DNA of 64,000 bases. It comes from Nanobdellota archaeon. GTDB taxonomy: Archaea > Nanobdellota > Nanobdellia > Pacearchaeales > GW2011-AR1. Both the position numbers and the translations under genes were made by a program. The stretch is taken from contig JBBSZC010000004.1 of the NCBI GenBank assembly GCA_038044925.1, positions 11,166 through 75,165 of the forward strand, read 5' to 3'. This document shows, piece by piece, positions 4,969-37,746 of the stretch. The notes under the pieces are model-generated. The model ran no database searches. It saw only the letters and a program-made list of their open reading frames with translations, and had not been told where the DNA came from. The stretch's first letter is position 1, and every line of letters starts with the position of its first letter.

Positions 4969-5083
4969 TGGGGATACGCGGATTTGAACCGCGGTCGCGA
5001 GGTGTTTAGGAAGCGTCTTAAGATATCCTCCTCGAGACTTCTTCACCCAAACCTCGAAGGCTACCAGACTACCCCATATCCCC
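4969..5083 (-). tRNA. tRNA-Pro (anticodon TGG) with an intron of about 42 nt after position 37
   Basis: Reverse complement gives GGGGATA acceptor, D loop AGTCTGGTAG, anticodon stem CGAGG/CCTCG, loop TTTGGG with a spliced-in A at position 38, T arm CGCGGTTCAAATCCGCG, 3' TATCCCC-A. Confidence 0.7.
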
Positions 5084-7206: not shown

Positions 7207-8304
7207 TTACTCCAAAAATTCAATCCCTAACTCTTCTTCAATCTCTTTGTGCCTTCTATCCTCAAGACTATCTCCTTGTCCGACGATCTGAGAGCTCTTT
7301 ACGCCTGTGACAATCAATAAAACCCTGATAGATTTTTCCATATCTTCTGAAATCTGCGCACCCCAAATCATTTTTGCATCAGGAGATAATTTATTTCCAA
7401 CTGTTTCAATTATTGATTTGCATTCATCTAAGCTCATATCAGATCCTCCAATTATATTTATTAGAGCGCCTGTTGCATCTGAAATATCCACATCCAGCAA
7501 AGGATTTTGAATTGCCTTTTCAACAGCTTCTGTTGCCCTATTTTGAGAATCTGATTCTCCCATGCCTATTAAAGAAACTCCTCCATCTATCATTATTGCT
7601 TTTATGTCTGCAAAATCCAGATTTACAAGACCTGATTTTGTTACCAATTCTGTTGTACCTTTTACGGCATTTGTTAGAATTTCGTCTGCAATTTTAAATG
7701 CAGTATGTAACGGCAGTTCAGGAGCTAATTCCAGCAGTTTATCATTAGGAATTACTATTAATGTATCAACACTATCCTGCATTCTCTCTAAACCATTCAT
7801 TGCATTTTCGATTCTTTTTCTTCCTTCTATTGAAAATGGAAGCGTAACAATTCCAATTACTAGAGCTCCTTGTTTTTTTGCTATTTCAGCGATTATTGGA
7901 GCAGCGCCTGTTCCTGTTCCCCCCCCTAATCCGCAGGTAATAAATATCATGTCGCTTCCTAAAAGTTTTTTCTTTATTTCTGACTCTGATTCTTTTGCTG
8001 CTTCTGCCCCTATCTTTGGATTGCTTCCTGCTCCTAAACCCTGAGTTAATTCTCTTCCAATTAAAATTTTTTGGTCTGCATTAGCGTATAATAGATCCTG
8101 GGCATCTGTGTTCACTGCTATAAGTTCCCCTCCTTTAATCCCTATTTCCCTCATTCTGGAAAGAGAATTATTCCCTCCGCCTCCAACACCTATAACTTTT
8201 ATTTTTGCGTTTTGTTTTTTTAGTAATTCTTCTAATTCCTTATCTATTTCACTGACATTTGAAGAAATATCTATTCTGTGTTCATCCCTTTGTACAACTG
8301 CCAT
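7207..8304 (-). CDS. ftsZ: cell division GTPase FtsZ
   Basis: IGVGGGGNN, tubulin signature GGGTGTGAAPIIAEIAK. Confidence 0.9.
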   Translation of the reverse strand: MAVVQRDEHRIDISSNVSEIDKELEELLKKQNAKIKVIGVGGGGNNSLSRMREIGIKGGELIAVNTDAQDLLYANADQKILIGRELTQGLGAGSNPKIGAEAAKESESEIKKKLLGSDMIFITCGLGGGTGTGAAPIIAEIAKKQGALVIGIVTLPFSIEGRKRIENAMNGLERMQDSVDTLIVIPNDKLLELAPELPLHTAFKIADEILTNAVKGTTELVTKSGLVNLDFADIKAIMIDGGVSLIGMGESDSQNRATEAVEKAIQNPLLDVDISDATGALINIIGGSDMSLDECKSIIETVGNKLSPDAKMIWGAQISEDMEKSIRVLLIVTGVKSSQIVGQGDSLEDRRHKEIEEELGIEFLE

Positions 8305-27274: not shown

Positions 27275-27607
27275 TCAGTAGTGAAACCTTCTTCCATAAT
27301 CTTTATGATTAAACCACTCAAGGATAACTGCTAATATCTGAACTTTATTTGGAGTTTTAATAGTATAAATCAGTCTCCATCTATCTGGCAAATCATATTT
27401 CCAAAGATTATTTATTTGGTATTTTTGTATATATTCTTTTGGAAAAAGTCTTTTTGGAATGGGAATTCCACAAAAAGCATTTTGTTTTATATCCCCTATT
27501 GCTCTCTTAATATACTCTTTAATTTCATCGCTTTCTTCTAATTCAACAAATTCTTTTTCAATCTTATCTTCAGCAAAAACAACTTCAGAGGGTTTTAAAA
27601 ATCTCAT
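27275..27607 (-). CDS. RelE/ParE-superfamily toxin-like protein
   Basis: C-terminal WKYDLPDRWRLIYTIKTPNKVQILAVILEWFNHKDY resembles the RelE/YoeB core strands and a Tyr near the C-terminus. Confidence 0.45.
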   Translation of the reverse strand: MRFLKPSEVVFAEDKIEKEFVELEESDEIKEYIKRAIGDIKQNAFCGIPIPKRLFPKEYIQKYQINNLWKYDLPDRWRLIYTIKTPNKVQILAVILEWFNHKDYGRRFHY

Positions 27608-27608
27608 A

Positions 27609-27878
27609 TTAGTATCTTTTTCTATTCATAAATTTTTTTGCAGATTCTGGGCTCCAAATATAGACTAAGATTCCTTCTTTGCTTACTGCTATCTTGTTTA
27701 TGCTTTGTAAATAATTCAAGATAACTAAATAAGTCTGCCACATAACTTTTTTAGGTAATTTTTTCCATAATTCTGTTCTATTAAATTCTCCACTATATTC
27801 TTCAATAGTTCTCTCTACCATTAAAACTGTTTCTAAAGTCGGGCTTCTTGCTATTGGATTTATTCTTTCTGTTTCCAT
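27609..27878 (-). CDS. hypothetical small protein (candidate partner of the RelE-like ORF)
   Basis: 89-aa ORF ending 1 nt before the RelE-like start. Confidence 0.3.
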   Translation of the reverse strand: METERINPIARSPTLETVLMVERTIEEYSGEFNRTELWKKLPKKVMWQTYLVILNYLQSINKIAVSKEGILVYIWSPESAKKFMNRKRY

Positions 27879-27946: not shown

Positions 27947-28082
27947 CGCCCCCACGAGGATTTGAACCTCGGTCTCAACCTTCTTACTTTATCTCCTTGA
28001 AATCTAGGAGAGGTAGTGTCAGGAGAACCTTGGTTCTCCCACATCCGCAAGGTCGTGTTCTATCCAACTGAACTATAGGGGC
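27947..28082 (-). tRNA. tRNA-Arg (anticodon GCG) with an intron of about 63 nt
   Basis: Reverse complement: acceptor GCCCCTA/TGGGGGC, D arm GTTC-AGTTGGATA-GAAC, anticodon stem CGACC/GGTTG, loop TTGCGG plus spliced-in A, T arm CGAGGTTCAAATCCTCG, discriminator G. Confidence 0.6.
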
Positions 28083-28141: not shown

Positions 28142-30178
28142 TTACTTTTTTAAAAATTCCTTTATCAATCTATAAACTTCAGGATATTTTTCAGTATTTG
28201 ATAAATCTCTATGGAAATATGAGAAAGTGCTATCTCCACATCCTCCATGAATAATACGATTTTCATAACCCTCTAAAAATGCGCTTGATTCTGTTACAAT
28301 TCCATCTCCTTGTTCTCCAGACATATCACAGCCAGTACCAAATATATTATATACAGGAACTTTTATTTTTTCGCTGTTTTTTAATTTATTAATAAACAAA
28401 CTATCTGCTGCAAGGTCGTTGCATTCTGCTTTTGAACCAAAGACATAACAATAAGTCTTAACTGTCCCTGTTATTCCACTATTTGGGGTGCCTAGAAGGA
28501 TTATTTTATCTATACTATCTTCTCCAAAAATCTGTGCATACCTCCTTGCTACTAAACCTCCCATACTATAACCTACTAAAACAACTTTGCCTCTGTTTGT
28601 TTTGAATTTTACTTCTTCAACAAGCTCCCTCAATCTTATTGCATAAGTATCTATATTATCTGTTTTTGTCTGAACTAAGATTGTCTCTTCTGTATTTTTA
28701 TATAAATCAAAATAATAGCTGCCAGAAAATGTAATTGGTTCTCTTATTAATCCAGACAACCCAAAGAGTTTCTCGTCTTTATCACTTAGCCAGATTATCC
28801 CCCCATTTAAAAAACCCTCTTGTTCTAATTTTTGCTGAATGCCAATAAAAGAATCTAAACTATGTTCTGAAGAAGTTTTTCTATTGAAATCATGTCCGTG
28901 TAAAAATATTACGGGATATAATTGCCTATTATTTTCGCAGGTTTTATCACAACACGCGGAGCAATTTCCTTGAATACAGCATTCTGGATCCGGTTCTTTG
29001 AGTGATGTAAATATATCGATATTTTCTTTTTGAGGAAGCTGTATCTTAATTAAAGTTGAATCATTTATAATTTCTTTTGCAGAACAACATGTATCTGAAA
29101 TAGTTTTTATTTTTTCTTTAATTTCATTTATATCCAAATAAATACTATTCATTCCGTTTATTTTATTCTGAAAAAGTAAAGAAGAATTTTGAATAGAATT
29201 AAATTGTTTTATCAGGGCATCTATATTATTAGAAATTTCTGCTGAAGTTTTTATTTTATTTAAATCTTTTAATTCCTGTTTTATTGACGTTAGATTATCA
29301 ATAAAAAGATTATACTTGTATATTTCACCAATAGTTTTATTAAAATTTATTTTTAAATCGTCTACTGATTTACTAAGAATTAATATGTTTTGGGAGAGAG
29401 CATCACTATATTTCTGCATTTCCCATTGTGATTTCAAACCATTTGCAGTTTTATTAATTTCAAACAAAGAATTGCTTATATTTCCTATTTGTAATTTAAA
29501 ATTTATTATATCTAAAGAATTTATGTTTTTATTTAATTCTAAAATTAGCTTTTCTGATTTTAAGTTTATATTTTCTATGTCGTTAATTAAAGAAGAAAGT
29601 TTTATTTTGGAAGAATCCTTGATTAACTTCTCTTTTTCATTTAAATCGTAGTTTAAAGTTACAATAGTTCTTCTAATAGTGTTCTGCTCTTTTGTATGGC
29701 ATAGTTCTGTCTTTACGCTCCTGCATTTAATATCAAAAGCATATATCTCTTGCCCTTTTCCGTATTTGTCTGTAGTTAGGGAATATTCTTTTGAGACTGG
29801 AATTATTGATTTAGTTTCAAAGCTCCCTAAGTCTATCTGCTCGCCTGTAGCTAAATTATTAAATTCGTAAGAACATACTGAAGTACAAAATGGATTAATA
29901 ATTACATAAGTCTTAAAGTTTATGTTTTGTTTTTCACCATAAGAAAGAAATAAGTTTTCATTATCTACGTTTAATTTTACTACAGTATCTGTTCCCAAAA
30001 GCAGATCTAGATATAAATATAGTTTAGCTCCAAATAAAAAGAGAATTATAACTATAAAAAGAATTATCATAAATATAAAAAAACTCTTCAAAAAGCCCTT
30101 TTTATCTACGTCTCTTTTACTTTTCATAAAGATAGTAAATATCAAGAATATAAAAAGGTATTGAGAACGCTCCTGCAA
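28142..30178 (-). CDS. membrane-anchored extracellular protein: N-terminal TM, long coiled-coil/Asn-rich stalk, Cys-rich linker, C-terminal alpha/beta-hydrolase (lipase-like) domain
   Basis: GxSxG nucleophile elbow VLVGYSMGGLVARRY; CCIQGNCSACCDKTCE Cys cluster; heptad-like Leu/Ile/Asn repeats. Confidence 0.55.
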   Translation of the reverse strand: MQERSQYLFIFLIFTIFMKSKRDVDKKGFLKSFFIFMIILFIVIILFLFGAKLYLYLDLLLGTDTVVKLNVDNENLFLSYGEKQNINFKTYVIINPFCTSVCSYEFNNLATGEQIDLGSFETKSIIPVSKEYSLTTDKYGKGQEIYAFDIKCRSVKTELCHTKEQNTIRRTIVTLNYDLNEKEKLIKDSSKIKLSSLINDIENINLKSEKLILELNKNINSLDIINFKLQIGNISNSLFEINKTANGLKSQWEMQKYSDALSQNILILSKSVDDLKINFNKTIGEIYKYNLFIDNLTSIKQELKDLNKIKTSAEISNNIDALIKQFNSIQNSSLLFQNKINGMNSIYLDINEIKEKIKTISDTCCSAKEIINDSTLIKIQLPQKENIDIFTSLKEPDPECCIQGNCSACCDKTCENNRQLYPVIFLHGHDFNRKTSSEHSLDSFIGIQQKLEQEGFLNGGIIWLSDKDEKLFGLSGLIREPITFSGSYYFDLYKNTEETILVQTKTDNIDTYAIRLRELVEEVKFKTNRGKVVLVGYSMGGLVARRYAQIFGEDSIDKIILLGTPNSGITGTVKTYCYVFGSKAECNDLAADSLFINKLKNSEKIKVPVYNIFGTGCDMSGEQGDGIVTESSAFLEGYENRIIHGGCGDSTFSYFHRDLSNTEKYPEVYRLIKEFLKK

Positions 30179-30291
30179 AATTCAGTAATTAAAATTCCTG
30201 AAACACAAAATGCGAAGCATTTTGTTGCAATCGAACCTGGAACACTAGTTCAATTCCAGAAAAGTATAATTTCGGTTTGCTCAATTATAAA

Positions 30292-30303
30292 ACGCCCCCG
30301 CCA
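30292..30303. repeat. partial duplicate of the tRNA-Ser 3' end (ACGCCCCCGCCA), putative att-like site
   Basis: 12/12 identity with 31676-31687, a GC-rich 12-mer in a roughly 29% GC genome. Confidence 0.5.
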
Positions 30304-30382
30304 TAAGTTAACAGGGTATAACAACGCCTTCTTTTAATTATTCATTTTGTCGAGGAGAATAGAGTTTTTAAATCTTGTCGAG

Positions 30383-31282
30383 CTAAAACCTAATTCTCTC
30401 TTCTTTCATTAGTTCAATTAAAAATTTAACAAGTGGTCTTAAATCTCCTTTTAATTGTGAAGTTTCAAGAGCATTATAATATTCGTGTTTTCTTTTATTG
30501 GGGATATTTATCATAGGATACCCCTTTTTATGAAGTATAAAATTCATTAATAATCTTCCAACTCTTCCATTTCCATCAACGAAAGGGTGAATTGTTTCAA
30601 AAGCTGAATGAAAATAAGCAGATAAAACCAATGGATGAATCTTATTCTTATTTTTAGTATACCAAGAAAGCAAAGAAGCCATTTCTTTTGAAACTTCCTC
30701 TGGTTTTGGTGGCAACCATTCAGTTCCCCTAATATAAACTTGCAGAGTTCTATATTTTCCTATCTGATTATTTAATTCTGGTTTTAATATATTCTTGACT
30801 ACAATCTCATGTAATTCTAAAATTAAATCCTTAGTAATTTCTTGCCTCGTTTTAAGGATATAATCAAAAGCCTCTTTATGATTAACAATTTCATTTATCT
30901 CTCTCAGAGATTTTCTTGGAGTTATATTTTCAAATAAAAGCTGAGAAGTTTCTTGAAGTGTTAATGTGTTTCCCTCAATATTAGTAGAATCGTAAGTGAA
31001 TAAAGAAACAAAAGATTCATATCTATTTTCCAAATTTGCTTTTGGTTGCTTTGCATATTCTTTTTTTATTTTTTCAATTTCTTCTTTCTCTTTATCTGTT
31101 AATAGAGTATTAAGCAAGTTAAGTTCTCTATCTGCTTTCTTCTCTTCTTCAATTAATTTCTTCTTATCTAAATTTAACCCCAGATAAATTCTTTTTTTTA
31201 TTATATCCTTTCCCTTTCTTATAGAAATAACTCTATAATAATACTTTTTCCCATTTCTTTCTTTTATCTCTGTATAAACCAT
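30383..31282 (-). CDS. Fic/Doc-family (Fido) protein
   Basis: Canonical Fic motif HPFVDGNGRVGRLL. Confidence 0.8.
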   Translation of the reverse strand: MVYTEIKERNGKKYYYRVISIRKGKDIIKKRIYLGLNLDKKKLIEEEKKADRELNLLNTLLTDKEKEEIEKIKKEYAKQPKANLENRYESFVSLFTYDSTNIEGNTLTLQETSQLLFENITPRKSLREINEIVNHKEAFDYILKTRQEITKDLILELHEIVVKNILKPELNNQIGKYRTLQVYIRGTEWLPPKPEEVSKEMASLLSWYTKNKNKIHPLVLSAYFHSAFETIHPFVDGNGRVGRLLMNFILHKKGYPMINIPNKRKHEYYNALETSQLKGDLRPLVKFLIELMKEERIRF

Positions 31283-31400
31283 AATATTCTATACGTCTAC
31301 GTCATTTAAATATCTTTTGGTGTAGTAGACGTACATGTTCTTAATTGACAAAGATTAAAAGAAGGTCAATATAAATCAATACTAACAGAAAAAGAAATAA

Positions 31401-31634
31401 TTAAAAATCTTCGGCCATGTCTTCATATTCACTTAAGTCTAATTTTCCACTATCAACTTTCTCTCTTAATTTTTTCACCTTTTCAGTTGATTCTTCAATC
31501 TTGTCTTTTCCAATAGAAGAAACAAAAAGATTTAATTCTATTAAATTAAATTCATTATCAACTGCCTTAATTCTTACATCAAGGTTTCTATGATGTATTG
31601 GAATTTTAAGATTAACCATAGAATACAGAAGCAA
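31401..31634 (-). CDS. hypothetical small acidic protein
   Basis: 77-aa ORF between Fic and tRNA-Ser. Confidence 0.25.
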   Translation of the reverse strand: MLLYSMVNLKIPIHHRNLDVRIKAVDNEFNLIELNLFVSSIGKDKIEESTEKVKKLREKVDSGKLDLSEYEDMAEDF

Positions 31635-31676
31635 CCCCCTTATTTAAGAGTTGCTAACTGTAATGAAAACATTACA

Positions 31677-31756
31677 CGCCCCCGCCAGGAATCGAACCTG
31701 GGAGCCCAAAGGGCATGGTTCTCAAGACCATTGCTCTACCACTGAGCGACAGAGGC
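31677..31756 (-). tRNA. tRNA-Ser (anticodon TGA), no intron
   Basis: Reverse complement: GCCTCTG acceptor, D arm GCTC-AGTGGTA-GAGC, anticodon stem ATGGT/ACCAT, loop CTTGAGA, long variable arm, T arm CCAGGTTCGATTCCTGG. Confidence 0.7.
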
Positions 31757-31835: not shown

Positions 31836-31950
31836 CCACACACTAAAGTGTGTGGTTTGTTCGTTGGGTTTTTAGGATACAGAAAACAACAGATAGTTGC
31901 AAAGCAACTATCTACTGCCTAAAGGCAGTAGTTTAATTTGTTTTCTGTAT
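31836..31950. other. highly structured element: hairpin CCACACAC-TAAA-GTGTGTGG, then a 13-bp closing stem (ATACAGAAAACAA/TTGTTTTCTGTAT) enclosing two hairpins with AAA/TAAA loops
   Basis: Perfect complementarity read from the sequence; lies between the PH-domain gene and tRNA-Ser. Confidence 0.3.
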
Positions 31951-31970: not shown

Positions 31971-32501
31971 TTATAATCCGTCTGAAAAATTCTTGTGAGT
32001 CTTTTTTATTACAAATTCCCTTATCCTTTCTGCATCTTCTATTGAAACTGCTGGAATATATCCTTCTGTAGTCCCTCCAAGTCCCCTAGCAGGCATAGAA
32101 TATCCTGCTGTTTGAATATTTATAGATGAAAATCCAAATATCCTTGCTATTACTCCTCTTTGAATATCTACATTTTGGACTCTTTCATAAGGAATATTAG
32201 AATATCTTTTCCAGATTATCCCTCTTTCTAATTTTAAATTAGTATTAGTGAATTCGTAAAACCACCTATTATAAGACATTCTTGCATAAATCTCTCCAAT
32301 AATTATTACTAACAATAAACCGGCTATAGCTAATAAAATAATAAAGATAAAAATAGAGCTCAAATTAGCACTAGTTCTTGTTGCGTTGAAAAACATACTA
32401 ACTCCAAAAAATAATAATAGGATAATTGCAATTATAAATGTAGAATAAAAACTAACTCTGAATAACCATCTTGCTCCTGGATGTAACCTTGTTTTTACCA
32501 T
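31971..32501 (-). CDS. bacterial-PH (YdbS/DUF304-like) domain membrane protein
   Basis: Two N-terminal TM helices then a PH-like region. Confidence 0.55.
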   Translation of the reverse strand: MVKTRLHPGARWLFRVSFYSTFIIAIILLLFFGVSMFFNATRTSANLSSIFIFIILLAIAGLLLVIIIGEIYARMSYNRWFYEFTNTNLKLERGIIWKRYSNIPYERVQNVDIQRGVIARIFGFSSINIQTAGYSMPARGLGGTTEGYIPAVSIEDAERIREFVIKKTHKNFSDGL

Positions 32502-32895: not shown

Positions 32896-34377
32896 TTAGG
32901 ATATTTTAATTGGTTTTTCTATTTTATAGAACTTTATTGCCTCTTTTATCCTTGATTTAGATTCTGCATAAATAGTAAGAATTTTGTCAGATTTTAAGAT
33001 TTTTTCTCCAAGATGATGGTATAAATAAAGCCCTGCTTTTTTATCTACAGGACAGCCTGCAACTAATGCTAAAGAATTTATTTTTTTATTATTTATCTCT
33101 ATTATTTTCCCTGTTTTTTTGGAAAAAATATCTTTAAAATAATTTGATTTTTTTAAGCGTAATAATTTCTCTGGTTTGCCTTCTTGTGCTTTAATTATAT
33201 CTTTAAATTTTTCAAATGCCCTGCCTGAACAGAGAATTTCCTTAGCTAAAATATATCCCTGGCCTTTTTTGGCTTTGCCTGTCATTTCTAAAAGTTGTCC
33301 AGAAAGAAAAAGAGATTTTTCTTCTAAATCTCTAGGGGATTCTTGTTTATTATCTAAAACTCTTACTATATCTATTAATTCCATTATAGGGCCTATACCG
33401 TTTCCTATAGGCTCGTCTCCTTTTGTCAAAACAGCCTTAACATGCTTGTGAAAATATTTTCCTATTTTTTCGAATTTACCCTTAATTTTAAGCGCATTCT
33501 CTTTTGAAACTTTTGCAAATTTGCCATAAGGAATATCAATGAGGATGTAATTGCTGTTTACTGCGAGTTTTTTTGCGAATATGGACGCAATCATCTGGGC
33601 TTCTGGATCTATCTTTAATTGTTTTTCTATCTGAATAATTTTTGAGTCTGCTGGAACTAATTCTAAAGCTCCTCCCCAGACAATACATGCATTTGTTTTT
33701 TTGACTATCTTTTTTATTTGAATTGGAGTGAATTCTACTTTAGCTATTGCTTCTATTACATCTGCTGTTCCTGCTGCAGAAGTTATTGCTCTAGAAGAGT
33801 TTTTAGGCATTGTCAAACCAGCAGAAGCGCAAATAGAAACAATAATGGGAGTTGTTCTATTTCCAGGAATTCCCCCTATGCAATGTTTATCTGCGATTAA
33901 TTTTGATTTAAAATTAAGCTTACTTCCAGAATTAACTATAGCGTTTATCAGGCTTATTGTTTCTGAAAAGTTCATTTTATTTTTATACATTCCTGAAACA
34001 AACAGGGCTATCTCTGATTCAGAAAGAGAATTATCGGCTATATCTTTTATAATTGCATCAATTTGTTTTCTAGAAAGTCTTTTTCCATTTAGCTTATCTT
34101 TTATGAAGTTTAAACTTTCCGGATAGTTTGCAAGATTAACATCTACTTTTTGCCCTTGATAAAGATTTAATCTTTCTTTTATTTCCGAAGAAACTGCTAT
34201 TTCATTTTCTTTTACAAGTTTTCCTACGGTGTCTACAATTGTAAATAGTTCATGAGAATTAATTTTTATTGAAATCCTGTCCCTCAAATGAACTCCTAAT
34301 TTTTCTGCTGTTCCTTCATTAAGCATTGCTACAGGTACTCCTGCAGACCATTTTAAAATTCTTATTTTAAGCTCCAT
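32896..34377 (-). CDS. deoA: AMP phosphorylase / thymidine phosphorylase family (archaeal DeoA-like)
   Basis: Family layout with DKHCIGGIPGNRTT in place of the DKHSTGGVGD phosphate-binding motif. Confidence 0.8.
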   Translation of the reverse strand: MELKIRILKWSAGVPVAMLNEGTAEKLGVHLRDRISIKINSHELFTIVDTVGKLVKENEIAVSSEIKERLNLYQGQKVDVNLANYPESLNFIKDKLNGKRLSRKQIDAIIKDIADNSLSESEIALFVSGMYKNKMNFSETISLINAIVNSGSKLNFKSKLIADKHCIGGIPGNRTTPIIVSICASAGLTMPKNSSRAITSAAGTADVIEAIAKVEFTPIQIKKIVKKTNACIVWGGALELVPADSKIIQIEKQLKIDPEAQMIASIFAKKLAVNSNYILIDIPYGKFAKVSKENALKIKGKFEKIGKYFHKHVKAVLTKGDEPIGNGIGPIMELIDIVRVLDNKQESPRDLEEKSLFLSGQLLEMTGKAKKGQGYILAKEILCSGRAFEKFKDIIKAQEGKPEKLLRLKKSNYFKDIFSKKTGKIIEINNKKINSLALVAGCPVDKKAGLYLYHHLGEKILKSDKILTIYAESKSRIKEAIKFYKIEKPIKIS

Positions 34378-37576: not shown

Positions 37577-37746
37577 GTTATGTAGCCAGTTTACCTTCCT
37601 ATCACTGAAATTCCTCGTAAGGAAAATCTGTATTTTATGACTTAAAATAAAATCAAATATGTCTTGATAAATTGGCATGTAGCCCTAGCTTATCGCTAAG
37701 ACAAAAATTAACTAAAATAAGAATTAATAAACCTTTACTTATTTTT

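What the first reader, a model, noticed from the sequence alone, without database searches (positions are those of the whole stretch)
30292..31687. Fic-domain gene bracketed by a duplicated tRNA-Ser 3' end
ACGCCCCCGCCA occurs at 30292-30303 and again at 31676-31687. The second copy is the 3' terminus of tRNA-Ser(TGA). This GC-rich 12-mer is very unlikely to recur by chance in 64 kb of AT-rich DNA. The 1.37-kb interval contains the Fic/Doc gene (HPFVDGNGRVGRLL) and a 77-aa ORF. This is the footprint of an integrated element, now without an integrase, that delivered a Fido toxin-like gene.
Basis: partly seen in the sequence, partly recalled or inferred. Interest (0 to 1): 0.6.

Follow-up and report, generated by a model that had tools for sequence, protein, structure and literature searches.

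The report
Integrase-less Fic cassette at tRNA-Ser
A 1.4-kb piece of foreign DNA carrying a self-regulated Fic (AMP-transferase) gene sits at the end of a serine tRNA gene in a tiny groundwater archaeon, bracketed by a copied tRNA tail; the same gene turns up behind at least eleven kinds of tRNA gene in related archaea, usually with the same kind of footprint.

Summary
ACGCCCCCGCCA occurs only at 30292-30303 and 31676-31687 (0.02 expected). The second copy is the 3' end of a minus-strand tRNA-Ser(UGA).

The organism is a DPANN archaeon (Pacearchaeota/'Nanoarchaeota', Hainich groundwater). Its gene order AI-2E/AMP-phosphorylase/p99/tRNA-Ser is shared by about 11 related genomes without Fic. One collinear pair gives an empty site (L021) and an occupied one (L034).

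Among 59 non-redundant homologue loci, 16 have Fic just downstream of a co-oriented tRNA, covering 11 anticodons. In most, a 10-19-nt copy of that tRNA's own 3' end follows the Fic stop. Versions with a tyrosine integrase exist (L046, L119). Nearly identical Fic genes sit at different tRNAs.

The window therefore holds an integrase-less remnant or satellite of a tRNA-targeting integrative element. It includes a conserved right arm and an older, third tRNA fragment at 30166-30240. The '77-aa ORF' is a 5'-truncated gene fragment, not a partner.

Fic is a FICD-like class II enzyme. It has a novel N-terminal beta-sheet domain that co-varies with a palindromic operator over its promoter.

The kind of element is known. 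The family, and this footprint in DPANN archaea, were not found in the searched literature. How the cassette retargets between tRNAs is unresolved.

The parts
31677..31756 (-). tRNA-Ser(UGA), intact. Its 3' end is the proximal junction (attL side).
   Evidence: ARAGORN; Rfam RF00005 at 57.2 bits. It is syntenic with the tRNA-Ser(UGA) of 11 related genomes.
31676..31687 (-). Proximal copy of the 12-bp direct repeat TGGCGGGGGCGT: T-stem 3 nt, acceptor 3' strand, discriminator and 1 trailer nt.
31566..31675 (-). Left arm of the insert. It holds two hairpins: GTAATG-TTTT-CATTAC directly after the tRNA, and GCAAC...GTTGC. No homologue was found in other loci.
   Evidence: Sequence; blastn against all fetched loci found nothing. 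Many other cassettes also start with a hairpin plus a T-run.
31389..31565 (-). 5'-truncated fragment of an 87-aa gene. The ORF 31401-31634 (77 aa, or 72 aa as called) reads through it.
   Evidence: Homologues P0211-P0216 are 87-88 aa and align only from residue 20 of the window ORF. Nucleotide homology of 88.7% to L125-L127 covers 31389-31565 only. In those contigs the full gene is not next to Fic or a tRNA.
31292..31333 (-). Fic promoter and operator: perfect palindrome TACGTCTAC-N24-GTAGACGTA around a TATA-like box (AAAGATATTTAAATGA). The right arm ends 9 nt before the ATG.
   Evidence: It is conserved in essentially all homologue loci. The two arms co-vary with each other and with N-domain residues.
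30383..31282 (-). Fic gene, 299 aa. N-terminal three-stranded beta-sheet plus helix domain (residues 1-63). Inhibitory-helix motif STNIEG (99-104). Catalytic motif HPFVDGNGRVGR.
   Evidence: Pfam Fic, E 2e-24. Human FICD (PDB) E 2e-34 over residues 71-290. Foldseek. AlphaFold models. PADLOC SoFic and PDC-S04 models.
30304..30382 (-). Right arm of the cassette: CTCGACAAGATTTAAAAACTC ... GGCGTTGTTATACCCTGTTAACTTA, abutting the distal repeat.
   Evidence: Homologous arms (TTTTAAAAACTC ... GGCGTTATAC-N2-AAAACGAGACTTA followed by the repeat) occur in L034, L047, L043, L045 and L061.
30292..30303 (-). Distal copy of the 12-bp repeat (attR side). It is followed by a T-rich stretch (TTTTATAA) like a native tRNA trailer.
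30166..30240 (-). Older, third tRNA-Ser 3' remnant. It consists of CCAGGTTCGATT (30229-30240), a 56-nt two-hairpin mini-insert (30173-30228) and a decayed end GAGCGTT (30166-30172).
   Evidence: 12-mer. The alignment to L097 2513-2587, where the same kind of insert splits CAGGTTCGATT from CCTGCACCGGGCGT.

Best explanation
The interval 30292-31687 is an integrated cassette that lacks an integrase. It sits at the 3' end of tRNA-Ser(UGA) in a DPANN archaeon.

It descends from, or is a non-autonomous satellite of, a family of small integrative elements. Their tyrosine recombinases cross over near the T-stem/acceptor 3' part of tRNA genes. Integration rebuilt the tRNA at the proximal junction. It left the displaced tRNA tail (TGGCGGGGGCGT plus the original T-rich trailer) at the distal junction, next to a conserved element arm.

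A still older tRNA fragment further out (30166-30240) shows that this site was used more than once. Newer arrivals pushed older ones outward.

The cargo is a FICD-like class II Fic AMP-transferase. It is held in check in two ways. It has its own inhibitory helix (STNIEG). It also has an N-terminal beta-sheet DNA-binding domain that most likely binds the palindrome over its own promoter, giving autorepression.

The gene probably persists as a defence- or addiction-type selfish cargo. No recombinase is present in the interval, so the cassette can now move only if a related integrase acts in trans, or not at all.

Shown: the repeat, the intact tRNA, the conserved arm, the empty and occupied sites, the integrase-bearing relatives, the recurrence at 11 anticodons, and the covariation between operator and protein.

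Inferred: the recombinase mechanism for this copy, autorepression, AMPylation activity, and any defence or toxin role.
For: Repeat and tRNA.

Organism and synteny. The window is identical to Hainich H43 0.1-um contigs. p240/AI-2E/AMP-phosphorylase/p99/tRNA-Ser(UGA) is conserved in Pace-/Woese-/Nanoarchaeota MAGs without Fic.

Empty versus filled. L021 has 9 nt between the tRNA-Ser 3' end and the p99 stop. Collinear L034 has Fic, TGGCGGGGGC and a 64-aa ORF there.

Recurrence.
- 16 of 59 non-redundant homologue loci have a co-oriented tRNA ending less than 600 nt upstream of Fic. About 1.3 are expected from tRNA density in the same loci. Eleven anticodons are involved.
- In most of these, a 10-19-nt copy of that tRNA's own 3' end lies 10-150 nt after the Fic stop.
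- Overall, 26 of 67 loci have a flanking direct repeat of 11 nt or more. Mismatched upstream/downstream pairs reach this in 74 of 394 cases.

Conserved right arm next to the repeat.

Integrase-bearing versions. L046 runs tRNA-Glu, 405-aa tyrosine recombinase, internal att-like copy, Fic, arm plus TCGGTCGGGGCGTT. L119/L120/L040 run CGGCGTGGGCGT, 400-aa integrase, 7 ORFs, decayed repeat, Fic. The integrase assignments rest.

Mobility. Fic genes 90-95% identical sit at different tRNAs. Between the window and L034, Fic is 76.6% identical while the neighbouring AMP-phosphorylase is 61%.

Fic biochemistry.

Operator. The palindrome is conserved. Arms TACGTCTAC/GTAGACGTA go with S20 and V/I27; arms TACGGGCAC/GTGCCCGTA go with N20 and F27. 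This includes L050, which otherwise clusters with the first type.

Known precedent. Archaeal integrases commonly target tRNA genes, with att sites sometimes as short as the acceptor end (PMC8371274). Repeated integration at one tRNA, leaving partial tRNAs and degraded remnants, is described for tycheposons (10.1101/2020.12.28.424599).
Against: - The exact repeat in the window is only 12 bp, and there is no integrase in the interval. None was found in the 64-kb window by tblastn with one element integrase (L120).
- In more than ten independent loci the repeat-bounded unit contains Fic alone (about 1.1-1.3 kb). Random decay of larger elements does not readily explain that.
- The repeat always matches the local tRNA, although near-identical Fic genes sit at different tRNAs and have different arms. 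A simple fixed-attP model therefore needs extra steps, such as cargo exchange between elements.
- No circular or free form was found, and there are no relatives in IMG/VR.
- No empty allele was found in the source population.
- The window's left arm has no homologue elsewhere.
- The fold match of the N-domain to integrase arm-binding domains is not significant.
Confidence: 0.7

Rival explanations
1. The repeats are target-site duplications made on insertion, not att sites. The roughly 1.1-kb Fic cassette would then be a transposon-like unit that targets the end of any tRNA gene with staggered cuts about 12-15 bp apart. An enzyme encoded elsewhere would do this, or, most radically, the Fic protein itself with its DNA-binding N-domain.
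For: - The repeat always copies the local tRNA, whatever its identity (11 anticodons). Most lengths cluster at 12-15 nt and end 1-3 nt past the tRNA.
- Many repeat-bounded units hold only Fic. In some, the left junction is 0-6 nt from the promoter palindrome (L047, L060, L083, L086, L117) and the right junction 10-20 nt from the stop (L086, L100).
- Near-identical Fic genes occur at different tRNAs.
- Some loci have long flanking repeats that are not tRNA-derived (L029, L058, L070, L095).
- The N-domain has the topology of integrase arm-binding domains (weak).
Against: - Cassette ends are not conserved and do not form terminal inverted repeats. Several different right-end families and variable left ends exist.
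- Repeat lengths range from 10 to 49 nt.
- Bona fide tyrosine-integrase elements are flanked by the same tRNA-end repeats and share the arm with the adjacent Fic unit (L046, L119).
- The arm next to the distal repeat resembles a degenerate T-arm, as expected of an attP core.
- No transposase or Cas1 is associated.
- Fic chemistry is not known to act on DNA (general knowledge).
Confidence: 0.12
2. The tRNA-end repeats were made by other integrase-bearing elements. The Fic gene arrived later by homologous recombination or gene conversion through its conserved promoter/operator and 3' sequences, replacing earlier cargo in an existing att-flanked slot.
For: - Extra copies of the promoter/operator palindrome lie directly after the Fic stop or further upstream in many loci, giving direct repeats around the ORF.
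- The same Fic (92.7% identical) is combined with unrelated arms in L046 and L047.
- The window-type right arm also ends non-Fic segments (L045, L043).
- The window insert is a mosaic containing a truncated host-type gene.
Against: - This is a variant of the main explanation for how the cargo got there, not for what the repeats are.
- No direct donor/recipient pair was found.
- The window has no second palindrome copy.
Confidence: 0.12
3. The upstream 12-mer is a chance match or part of a functional RNA, such as a split or permuted tRNA half, or an alternative 3' exon of an intron-rich archaeal tRNA. It would then not be a recombination scar.
For: - The genome has intron-containing tRNAs (tRNA-Arg and tRNA-Pro).
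- tRNA fragments at 30229-30240 and 30292-30303 lie in swapped order.
- The region folds somewhat better than shuffles (z -2.3).
Against: - Chance expectation is 0.02.
- Neither Rfam nor ARAGORN with introns finds a tRNA there.
- The sequence left of the 12-mer lacks a T-arm, and only 52 nt separate the fragments, too few for a permuted tRNA body.
- The same footprint recurs behind many different tRNAs, always bracketing Fic.
Confidence: 0.02

Closest known systems
tRNA-gene-targeting integrative elements of archaea and bacteria (tyrosine-recombinase att sites in the T-arm/3' end; Williams 2002 classes; review PMC8371274)
   Same: An intact tRNA at one junction and a partial 3' tRNA copy at the other. 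An element arm lies next to the distal copy. Related genomes have empty sites. Relatives carry a tyrosine integrase between the tRNA and the cargo.
   Different: This copy has no integrase and is only 1.4 kb, with an exact repeat of just 12 bp. The host is a DPANN archaeon, a group the review does not mention (0 occurrences).
Tycheposon islands of Prochlorococcus (10.1101/2020.12.28.424599)
   Same: Repeated integration next to tRNA genes, with newer elements pushing older ones outward. Partial tRNAs and degraded remnants are scattered through the island. Several different tRNAs are used. Cargo is adaptive or defensive.
   Different: Tycheposons are 10-20 kb and carry integration and replication modules. 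Here the recurring unit is a single Fic gene with its own operator. No replication module was seen.
Non-autonomous att-flanked elements mobilised in trans (CIMEs/IMEs of streptococci; integron gene cassettes) - comparison from general knowledge
   Same: Small units without a recombinase, bounded by recombination sites. They are sometimes arranged in tandem arrays next to an integrase-bearing unit, as in L046.
   Different: Trans-mobilisation is not shown here. The sites are tRNA tails that differ from locus to locus, not a common attC or att.
FICD/HYPE-type class II Fic AMP-transferases, and the SoFic single-gene anti-phage system (PMC12249575)
   Same: HPFxDGNGRxxR catalytic motif. An N-terminal inhibitory helix motif [ST]xxxE[GN]. 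The best solved relative is human FICD (E 2e-34). The PADLOC SoFic model matches at E 8e-41.
   Different: It lacks the last ~100 positions of the PADLOC SoFic model (the match ends at position 262 of 361). It lacks the TPR/membrane part of FICD. Instead it has a 65-residue N-terminal beta-sheet/helix domain with no significant structural match. There is no downstream AS1-like gene.
Casposons (Cas1 transposons that insert at tRNA 3' ends with 14-15-bp duplications) - from general knowledge
   Same: A duplication of about 12-15 bp covering the 3' end of a tRNA gene.
   Different: There is no Cas1, no polymerase and no terminal inverted repeats. Tyrosine integrases are present in related elements.

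Membership tests
Integrated element at a tRNA gene (site-specific recombination footprint) | Direct repeat made of the tRNA 3' part, bracketing the insert | tested here: met
   A 12-bp exact repeat occurs only twice in 64 kb. It corresponds to tRNA positions 70-80 plus 1 trailer nt.
Integrated element at a tRNA gene (site-specific recombination footprint) | Intact tRNA gene at the proximal junction | tested here: met
   ARAGORN and Rfam at 57.2 bits.
Integrated element at a tRNA gene (site-specific recombination footprint) | Empty site in related genomes | tested here: met
   Eleven relatives with syntenic tRNA-Ser(UGA) lack Fic. L021 (empty) and L034 (filled) are collinear. No empty allele was found in the source population itself.
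Integrated element at a tRNA gene (site-specific recombination footprint) | Recombinase gene inside the element | tested here: not met
   The interval has no integrase, and tblastn of the window with the L120 integrase found nothing. Relatives L046, L119 and L085 do have one between the tRNA and Fic.
Integrated element at a tRNA gene (site-specific recombination footprint) | Excision or a circular form with attP | not testable with these tools
   This needs read-level data or experiment. No relatives were found in viral contigs.
Fic/Fido class II AMP-transferase | Catalytic motif HxFx(D/E)GNGRxxR in a Fic fold | tested here: met
   HPFVDGNGRVGR is present. Pfam PF02661, E 2e-24. FICD structures match by sequence and fold.
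Fic/Fido class II AMP-transferase | Inhibitory helix motif [ST]xxxE[GN] N-terminal to the core | tested here: met
   STNIEG at residues 99-104, invariant in 55 homologues. It aligns with the FICD inhibitory helix region. The model is low-confidence there (pLDDT below 50 at 96-107).
Fic/Fido class II AMP-transferase | AMPylation activity and target | not testable with these tools
   Requires a biochemical assay.
SoFic anti-phage defence system | Match to the SoFic model, including its C-terminal domain | tested here: inconclusive
   The PADLOC SoFic model matches at E 8e-41 but covers only profile positions 21-262 of 361. The NCBIfam SoFic equivalog scores 48.9 bits against a cut-off of 550.
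Two-gene Fic or Doc toxin-antitoxin module (FicT/FicA, Doc/Phd) | Adjacent small antitoxin gene conserved with the toxin | tested here: not met
   The only neighbouring ORF is a truncated fragment of an unrelated 87-aa gene. In other loci Fic stands alone 57-200 nt after the tRNA.
Transposon with target-site duplication (including casposons) | Transposase or Cas1, and conserved terminal inverted repeats abutting the duplication | tested here: not met
   No such gene is present. The ends fall into several unrelated families and are not inverted repeats.
Split, permuted or intron-containing tRNA | The fragment completes a tRNA structure with a partner half | tested here: not met
   No tRNA is called at 30150-30310 by Rfam or by ARAGORN with introns. 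There is no T-arm next to the 12-mer.

The most novel reading that the evidence does not exclude
The Fic gene with its operator is a miniature, actively mobile cassette of DPANN archaea. It would insert behind essentially any tRNA gene and create or adopt a copy of that tRNA's tail each time, in an integron-like or transposon-like way. Its N-terminal domain, which resembles an integrase arm-binding domain, would take part in recruiting the recombination machinery rather than only repressing its own promoter.
Probability: 0.15. Interest if true: 0.75.

Novelty: new member of a known kind. Interest (0 to 1): 0.42.

Why it matters
Mobile elements of DPANN archaea are poorly described. These are organisms with tiny genomes that probably live as symbionts. 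The archaeal tyrosine-recombinase review consulted here does not mention them.

This locus shows that their tRNA genes act as reusable landing pads, as in better-known microbes. It also exposes a widespread, highly conserved one-gene cargo: a self-inhibited, apparently self-repressed Fic enzyme. More than 5,900 homologues were scored (E <= 0.001), and the best 120 are 72-84% identical to the window protein. The gene moves between tRNA sites faster than it diverges.

The family offers three things for follow-up:
- a simple marker for integration hotspots in these genomes;
- a candidate defence or addiction gene to test;
- a compact protein/operator pair with natural specificity variants (S20 and V/I27 with GTCTAC, against N20 and F27 with GGGCAC).

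If the cassette proves mobile on its own, it would be a new minimal mobile unit.

Tried and rejected
- Chance repeat: rejected.
- Hidden tRNA or tRNA half at the upstream copy: rejected.
- Repeats of the other two tRNAs of the window (Arg, Pro): none found.
- Population polymorphism. Look-ups of the exact Fic, bPH_2 and lipase-like proteins returned only contigs identical to the window, with no empty allele. Contig breaks at 31898 and 31925 fall in a hairpin cluster and are probably assembly effects.
- Fic as a vertically inherited core gene: rejected. It is absent from 11 syntenic relatives and sits in many unrelated contexts.
- Fic on recognised viruses: no relatives in IMG/VR, with either the single sequence or the alignment.
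- orf77 as antitoxin or partner: rejected.
- Composition anomaly: none. The cassette is 25-32% GC, like its flanks.
- Homologues of the window's left arm, inter-fragment spacer and pre-tRNA region in other loci: none meaningful.
- Literature searches for Fic with DPANN, tRNA or integrase found no description of this family.
Full report
**Observation.** ACGCCCCCGCCA occurs only at 30292-30303 and 31676-31687, even with one mismatch allowed. Shuffles give 0.02 matches per window.

ARAGORN and Rfam place tRNA-Ser(UGA) at 31677-31756 on the minus strand. Read on that strand, the repeat is TGGCGGGGGCGT. It comprises three T-stem bases, the acceptor 3' strand, the discriminator and one trailer base.

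A k-mer comparison of the tRNA with the whole window found one further shared 12-mer. CCAGGTTCGATT (T-stem 5' strand plus T-loop) recurs at 30229-30240, 52 nt beyond the first copy. The region downstream of the tRNA therefore holds two separate fragments of its 3' part.

**Organism and neighbourhood.** The window is identical to contigs from Hainich groundwater (well H43, 0.1-um fraction). NCBI labels the Fic protein as from a Nanoarchaeota MAG.

Relatives of the AMP phosphorylase gene (32896-34377) in GTDB genomes are Pace-, Woese- and Nanoarchaeota MAGs, at 67% identity or less. They share the order p240, AI-2E transporter, AMP phosphorylase, p99. Eleven of them have tRNA-Ser(UGA) next. None has Fic, the bPH_2 gene or the lipase-like gene nearby.

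Ten of the eleven show no copy of 11 nt or more of the tRNA tail in the fetched flanks. The exception, L007, has an 80-nt insert followed by GGGTAGGGGCG. After that repeat comes the flank that directly follows the tRNA in its relative L012. Synteny thus breaks exactly at this tRNA.

**Fic elsewhere.** The Fic protein has more than 5,900 scored homologues. The best 120 are 72-84% identical and nearly all are 299 aa. Their contexts are unrelated to one another.

One lineage (L034-L037) has tRNA-Ser(UGA), then Fic 108 nt later, then TGGCGGGGGC 101 nt after the Fic stop. There the tRNA points the other way relative to AMP phosphorylase.

L021 is collinear with L034 (L10, tRNA-Thr, helicase, tRNA-Ser, p99, AMP phosphorylase, AI-2E). 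It has only 9 nt between the tRNA end and the p99 stop. That pair gives an empty and a filled site.

Between the window and L034, Fic is 76.6% identical but AMP phosphorylase is only 61%.

**The family-wide pattern.** Eighty metagenomic loci with homologues of 61-84% identity were fetched.
- Of 59 non-redundant loci with at least 600 nt of upstream sequence, 16 have a co-oriented tRNA ending within 600 nt of the Fic start. About 1.3 are expected from tRNA density in the same loci.
- Eleven anticodons are involved: Ser-TGA, Ser-CGA, Ser-GGA, Ser-GCT, Asn, Asp, Glu-TTC, Glu-CTC, Gly-GCC, Gly-CCC and Leu. Shorter contigs add Tyr-GTA (L086).
- In most of these loci, a 10-19-nt exact copy of that particular tRNA's 3' end, including 1-3 trailer bases and no CCA, lies 10-150 nt after the Fic stop. 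Examples are TGGTGCGGGCGTT (Ser-CGA), ATCTGGGCGGGGGGAT (Asn), CTCGGTCGGGGCGTT (Glu) and CCCGGTCGCTGCAT (Gly-CCC).
- Several loci have three or more copies, so they hold tandem arrays of units (L060, L065, L083, L097, L043).
- In an unbiased test, 26 of 67 loci have a flanking direct repeat of 11 nt or more. Mismatched upstream/downstream pairs reach this in 74 of 394 cases (19%). A few repeats are long and not tRNA-derived.

**Arms and integrases.** In the window, L034, L047 and L061, the stretch between the Fic stop and the distal repeat is a conserved non-coding arm: TTTTAAAAACTC ... GGCGTTATAC-N2-AAAACGAGACTTA. In L043 and L045 the same arm plus repeat lies away from the Fic stop, 615 nt downstream of it and upstream of Fic respectively. 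The window copy is recognisable but diverged.

In L046, a 3.8-kb contig reads as follows: tRNA-Glu, a 405-aa tyrosine recombinase, decayed ORFs, an internal site ATTCCGACTAAATCGTAGTCgTGTCG, Fic, then ATTCCGACTAAATCGTAGTCaTG followed by TCGGTCGGGGCGTT.

In L119/L120/L040, a 400-aa integrase and seven ORFs lie between CGGCGTGGGCGT and a decayed copy of it that precedes Fic. Both integrases match Pfam or PHROG integrase families and, weakly, the archaeal XerA model.

Recombinase-bearing elements therefore use the same kind of site. In L046 the integrase unit and the neighbouring Fic unit share the same arm.

This fits what is known for archaeal integrases. tRNA genes are their usual targets, and att sites can be as short as the acceptor end (PMC8371274). 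It also fits tycheposon islands, where repeated integration pushes older elements outward and leaves partial tRNAs and degraded remnants (10.1101/2020.12.28.424599).

**What does not fit simply.** Fic proteins 90-95% identical sit at different tRNAs, sometimes with unrelated arms. L047 (Ser-CGA) and L043 (Ser-TGA) are 95% identical. L046 (Glu-TTC) and L047 are 92.7% identical. L107 and L100 (two Gly tRNAs) are 90.7% identical.

In many loci the repeat-bounded unit holds nothing but Fic, with junctions only a few bases from the promoter and the stop codon.

A fixed attP cannot explain this on its own. Either the cargo is exchanged between elements, or the duplication is made on insertion. Exchange might run through the extra promoter/operator copies seen beside the gene in many loci.

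I rank these as rivals. The transposon-like reading is weakened by several points:
- the variable, non-inverted ends;
- repeat lengths of 10-49 nt;
- the integrase-bearing relatives;
- the absence of any transposase.

**Anatomy of the window insert.** Read along the minus strand:
- tRNA-Ser (31756-31677);
- a 110-nt left arm with two hairpins (31675-31566);
- a gene fragment (31565-31389);
- the Fic promoter/operator (31333-31292);
- Fic (31282-30383);
- the right arm (30382-30304);
- the distal repeat (30303-30292), followed by a T-rich stretch like a native tRNA trailer;
- after 52 nt, the older remnant (30240-30166).

The small ORF is not a partner gene. Its homologues are 87-88 aa and align only from its residue 20. 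Nucleotide homology (88.7%) covers 31389-31565 only. The intact gene elsewhere is not linked to Fic or a tRNA.

The older remnant consists of CCAGGTTCGATT, a 56-nt two-hairpin insert and a decayed GAGCGTT. It is homologous to L097, where the same kind of insert separates CAGGTTCGATT from CCTGCACCGGGCGT. I could not explain this mini-insert.

**The cargo.** The protein matches Pfam Fic. Its best solved relative is human FICD, at E 2e-34 over residues 71-290. It has the catalytic motif HPFVDGNGRVGR and the class II inhibitory motif STNIEG, both invariant in 55 homologues.

PADLOC's SoFic and PDC-S04 defence models match strongly, but without the last ~100 positions of the SoFic model. SoFic is a known abortive-infection AMPylase (PMC12249575).

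Residues 1-63 form three beta strands and a helix (model pLDDT 89). They have no significant structural match. P4-like and HPI integrase arm-binding domains appear at TM 0.4-0.5. In a library of 1.84 billion representatives, this domain is almost confined to this family.

**The operator.** Every homologue has a palindrome around a TATA-like box, with the right arm 7-9 nt before the ATG. Most have TACGTCTAC-N24-GTAGACGTA and the N-domain residues S20 and V/I27.

A second set has TACGGGCAC-N24-GTGCCCGTA with N20 and F27. It includes L050, whose protein otherwise groups with the first set. Both arms change together, and they change together with the protein. That is good comparative evidence that the N-domain binds this operator and represses its own promoter. 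The function remains an inference.

**Verdict.** The locus is an integrase-less integrated cassette at a tRNA-Ser gene. It is one member of a large family of Fic cassettes at tRNA 3' ends in DPANN archaea, a family the searched literature does not describe.

The kind of element is known. The open question is how a one-gene unit comes to carry the matching tRNA tail at so many different tRNAs.

Noticed in passing
window 27947-28082 (-) and 4969-5083 (-): Two intron-containing tRNA genes that default ARAGORN missed: tRNA-Arg(GCG) with a 63-nt intron and tRNA-Pro(TGG) with a 42-nt intron. Neither has a copy of its 3' end elsewhere in the window.
   Followed up: partly
window 27275-27878 (-): A RelE/YoeB/ParE-like 110-aa ORF (weak Pfam hits) and an overlapping 89-aa ORF lie just downstream of tRNA-Arg. 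This may be a toxin-antitoxin pair next to a second tRNA.
   Followed up: no
window 37577-37701 (-); L034 656-805: RT-16 RNA (Rfam RF03019; 62.7 and 83.4 bits) lies next to reverse-transcriptase (RVT_1) genes. It is conserved in position in two lineages.
   Followed up: no
window 31836-31950: A cluster of strong hairpins lies between the bPH_2 gene and tRNA-Ser: CCACACAC...GTGTGTGG and a nested CAGAAAACAA...TTGTTTTCTG structure. Other assemblies of the same population break at 31898 and 31925.
   Followed up: no
window 30173-30228; L097 2524-2573; L043 about 2409-2458: A homologous 50-56-nt insert of two hairpins splits leftover tRNA 3' fragments exactly between T-loop and T-stem 3' strand. 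A different insert family ending in GGTCGGGAGTT occupies the same position in L007 and L065. Its origin is unexplained.
   Followed up: partly
L007 13135-13148; L034 about 7753-7767: A 14-15-nt copy of the 5' end of tRNA-Ser lies 60-70 nt upstream of the tRNA in two relatives. The window has none.
   Followed up: no
L029, L031, L038, L042, L044, L057, L064, L069, L084, L085, L087, L089, L114 (just after the Fic stop); L046, L068, L094, L101, L109 (upstream): Extra copies of the Fic promoter/operator palindrome flank the gene. They form direct repeats around the ORF that could support cargo exchange.
   Followed up: partly
proteins P0152, P0158, P0174, P0196, P0200, P0201: The Fic N-terminal domain (51-57% identity over ~50-75 residues) appears at the N-terminus of proteins with class II aminoacyl-tRNA synthetase core, PEP-utilizer or helicase C domains. 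These could be real fusions or artefacts of truncated cassettes.
   Followed up: no
L034 4446-7727 versus L021 11927-13858: The helicase between tRNA-Thr and tRNA-Ser carries an intein with a LAGLIDADG domain in L034. Its L021 orthologue lacks the intein.
   Followed up: no
window 31971-32501 (-): A bPH_2 membrane-protein gene lies between p99 and tRNA-Ser in the window only. All fetched relatives go from p99 more or less directly to the tRNA.
   Followed up: no
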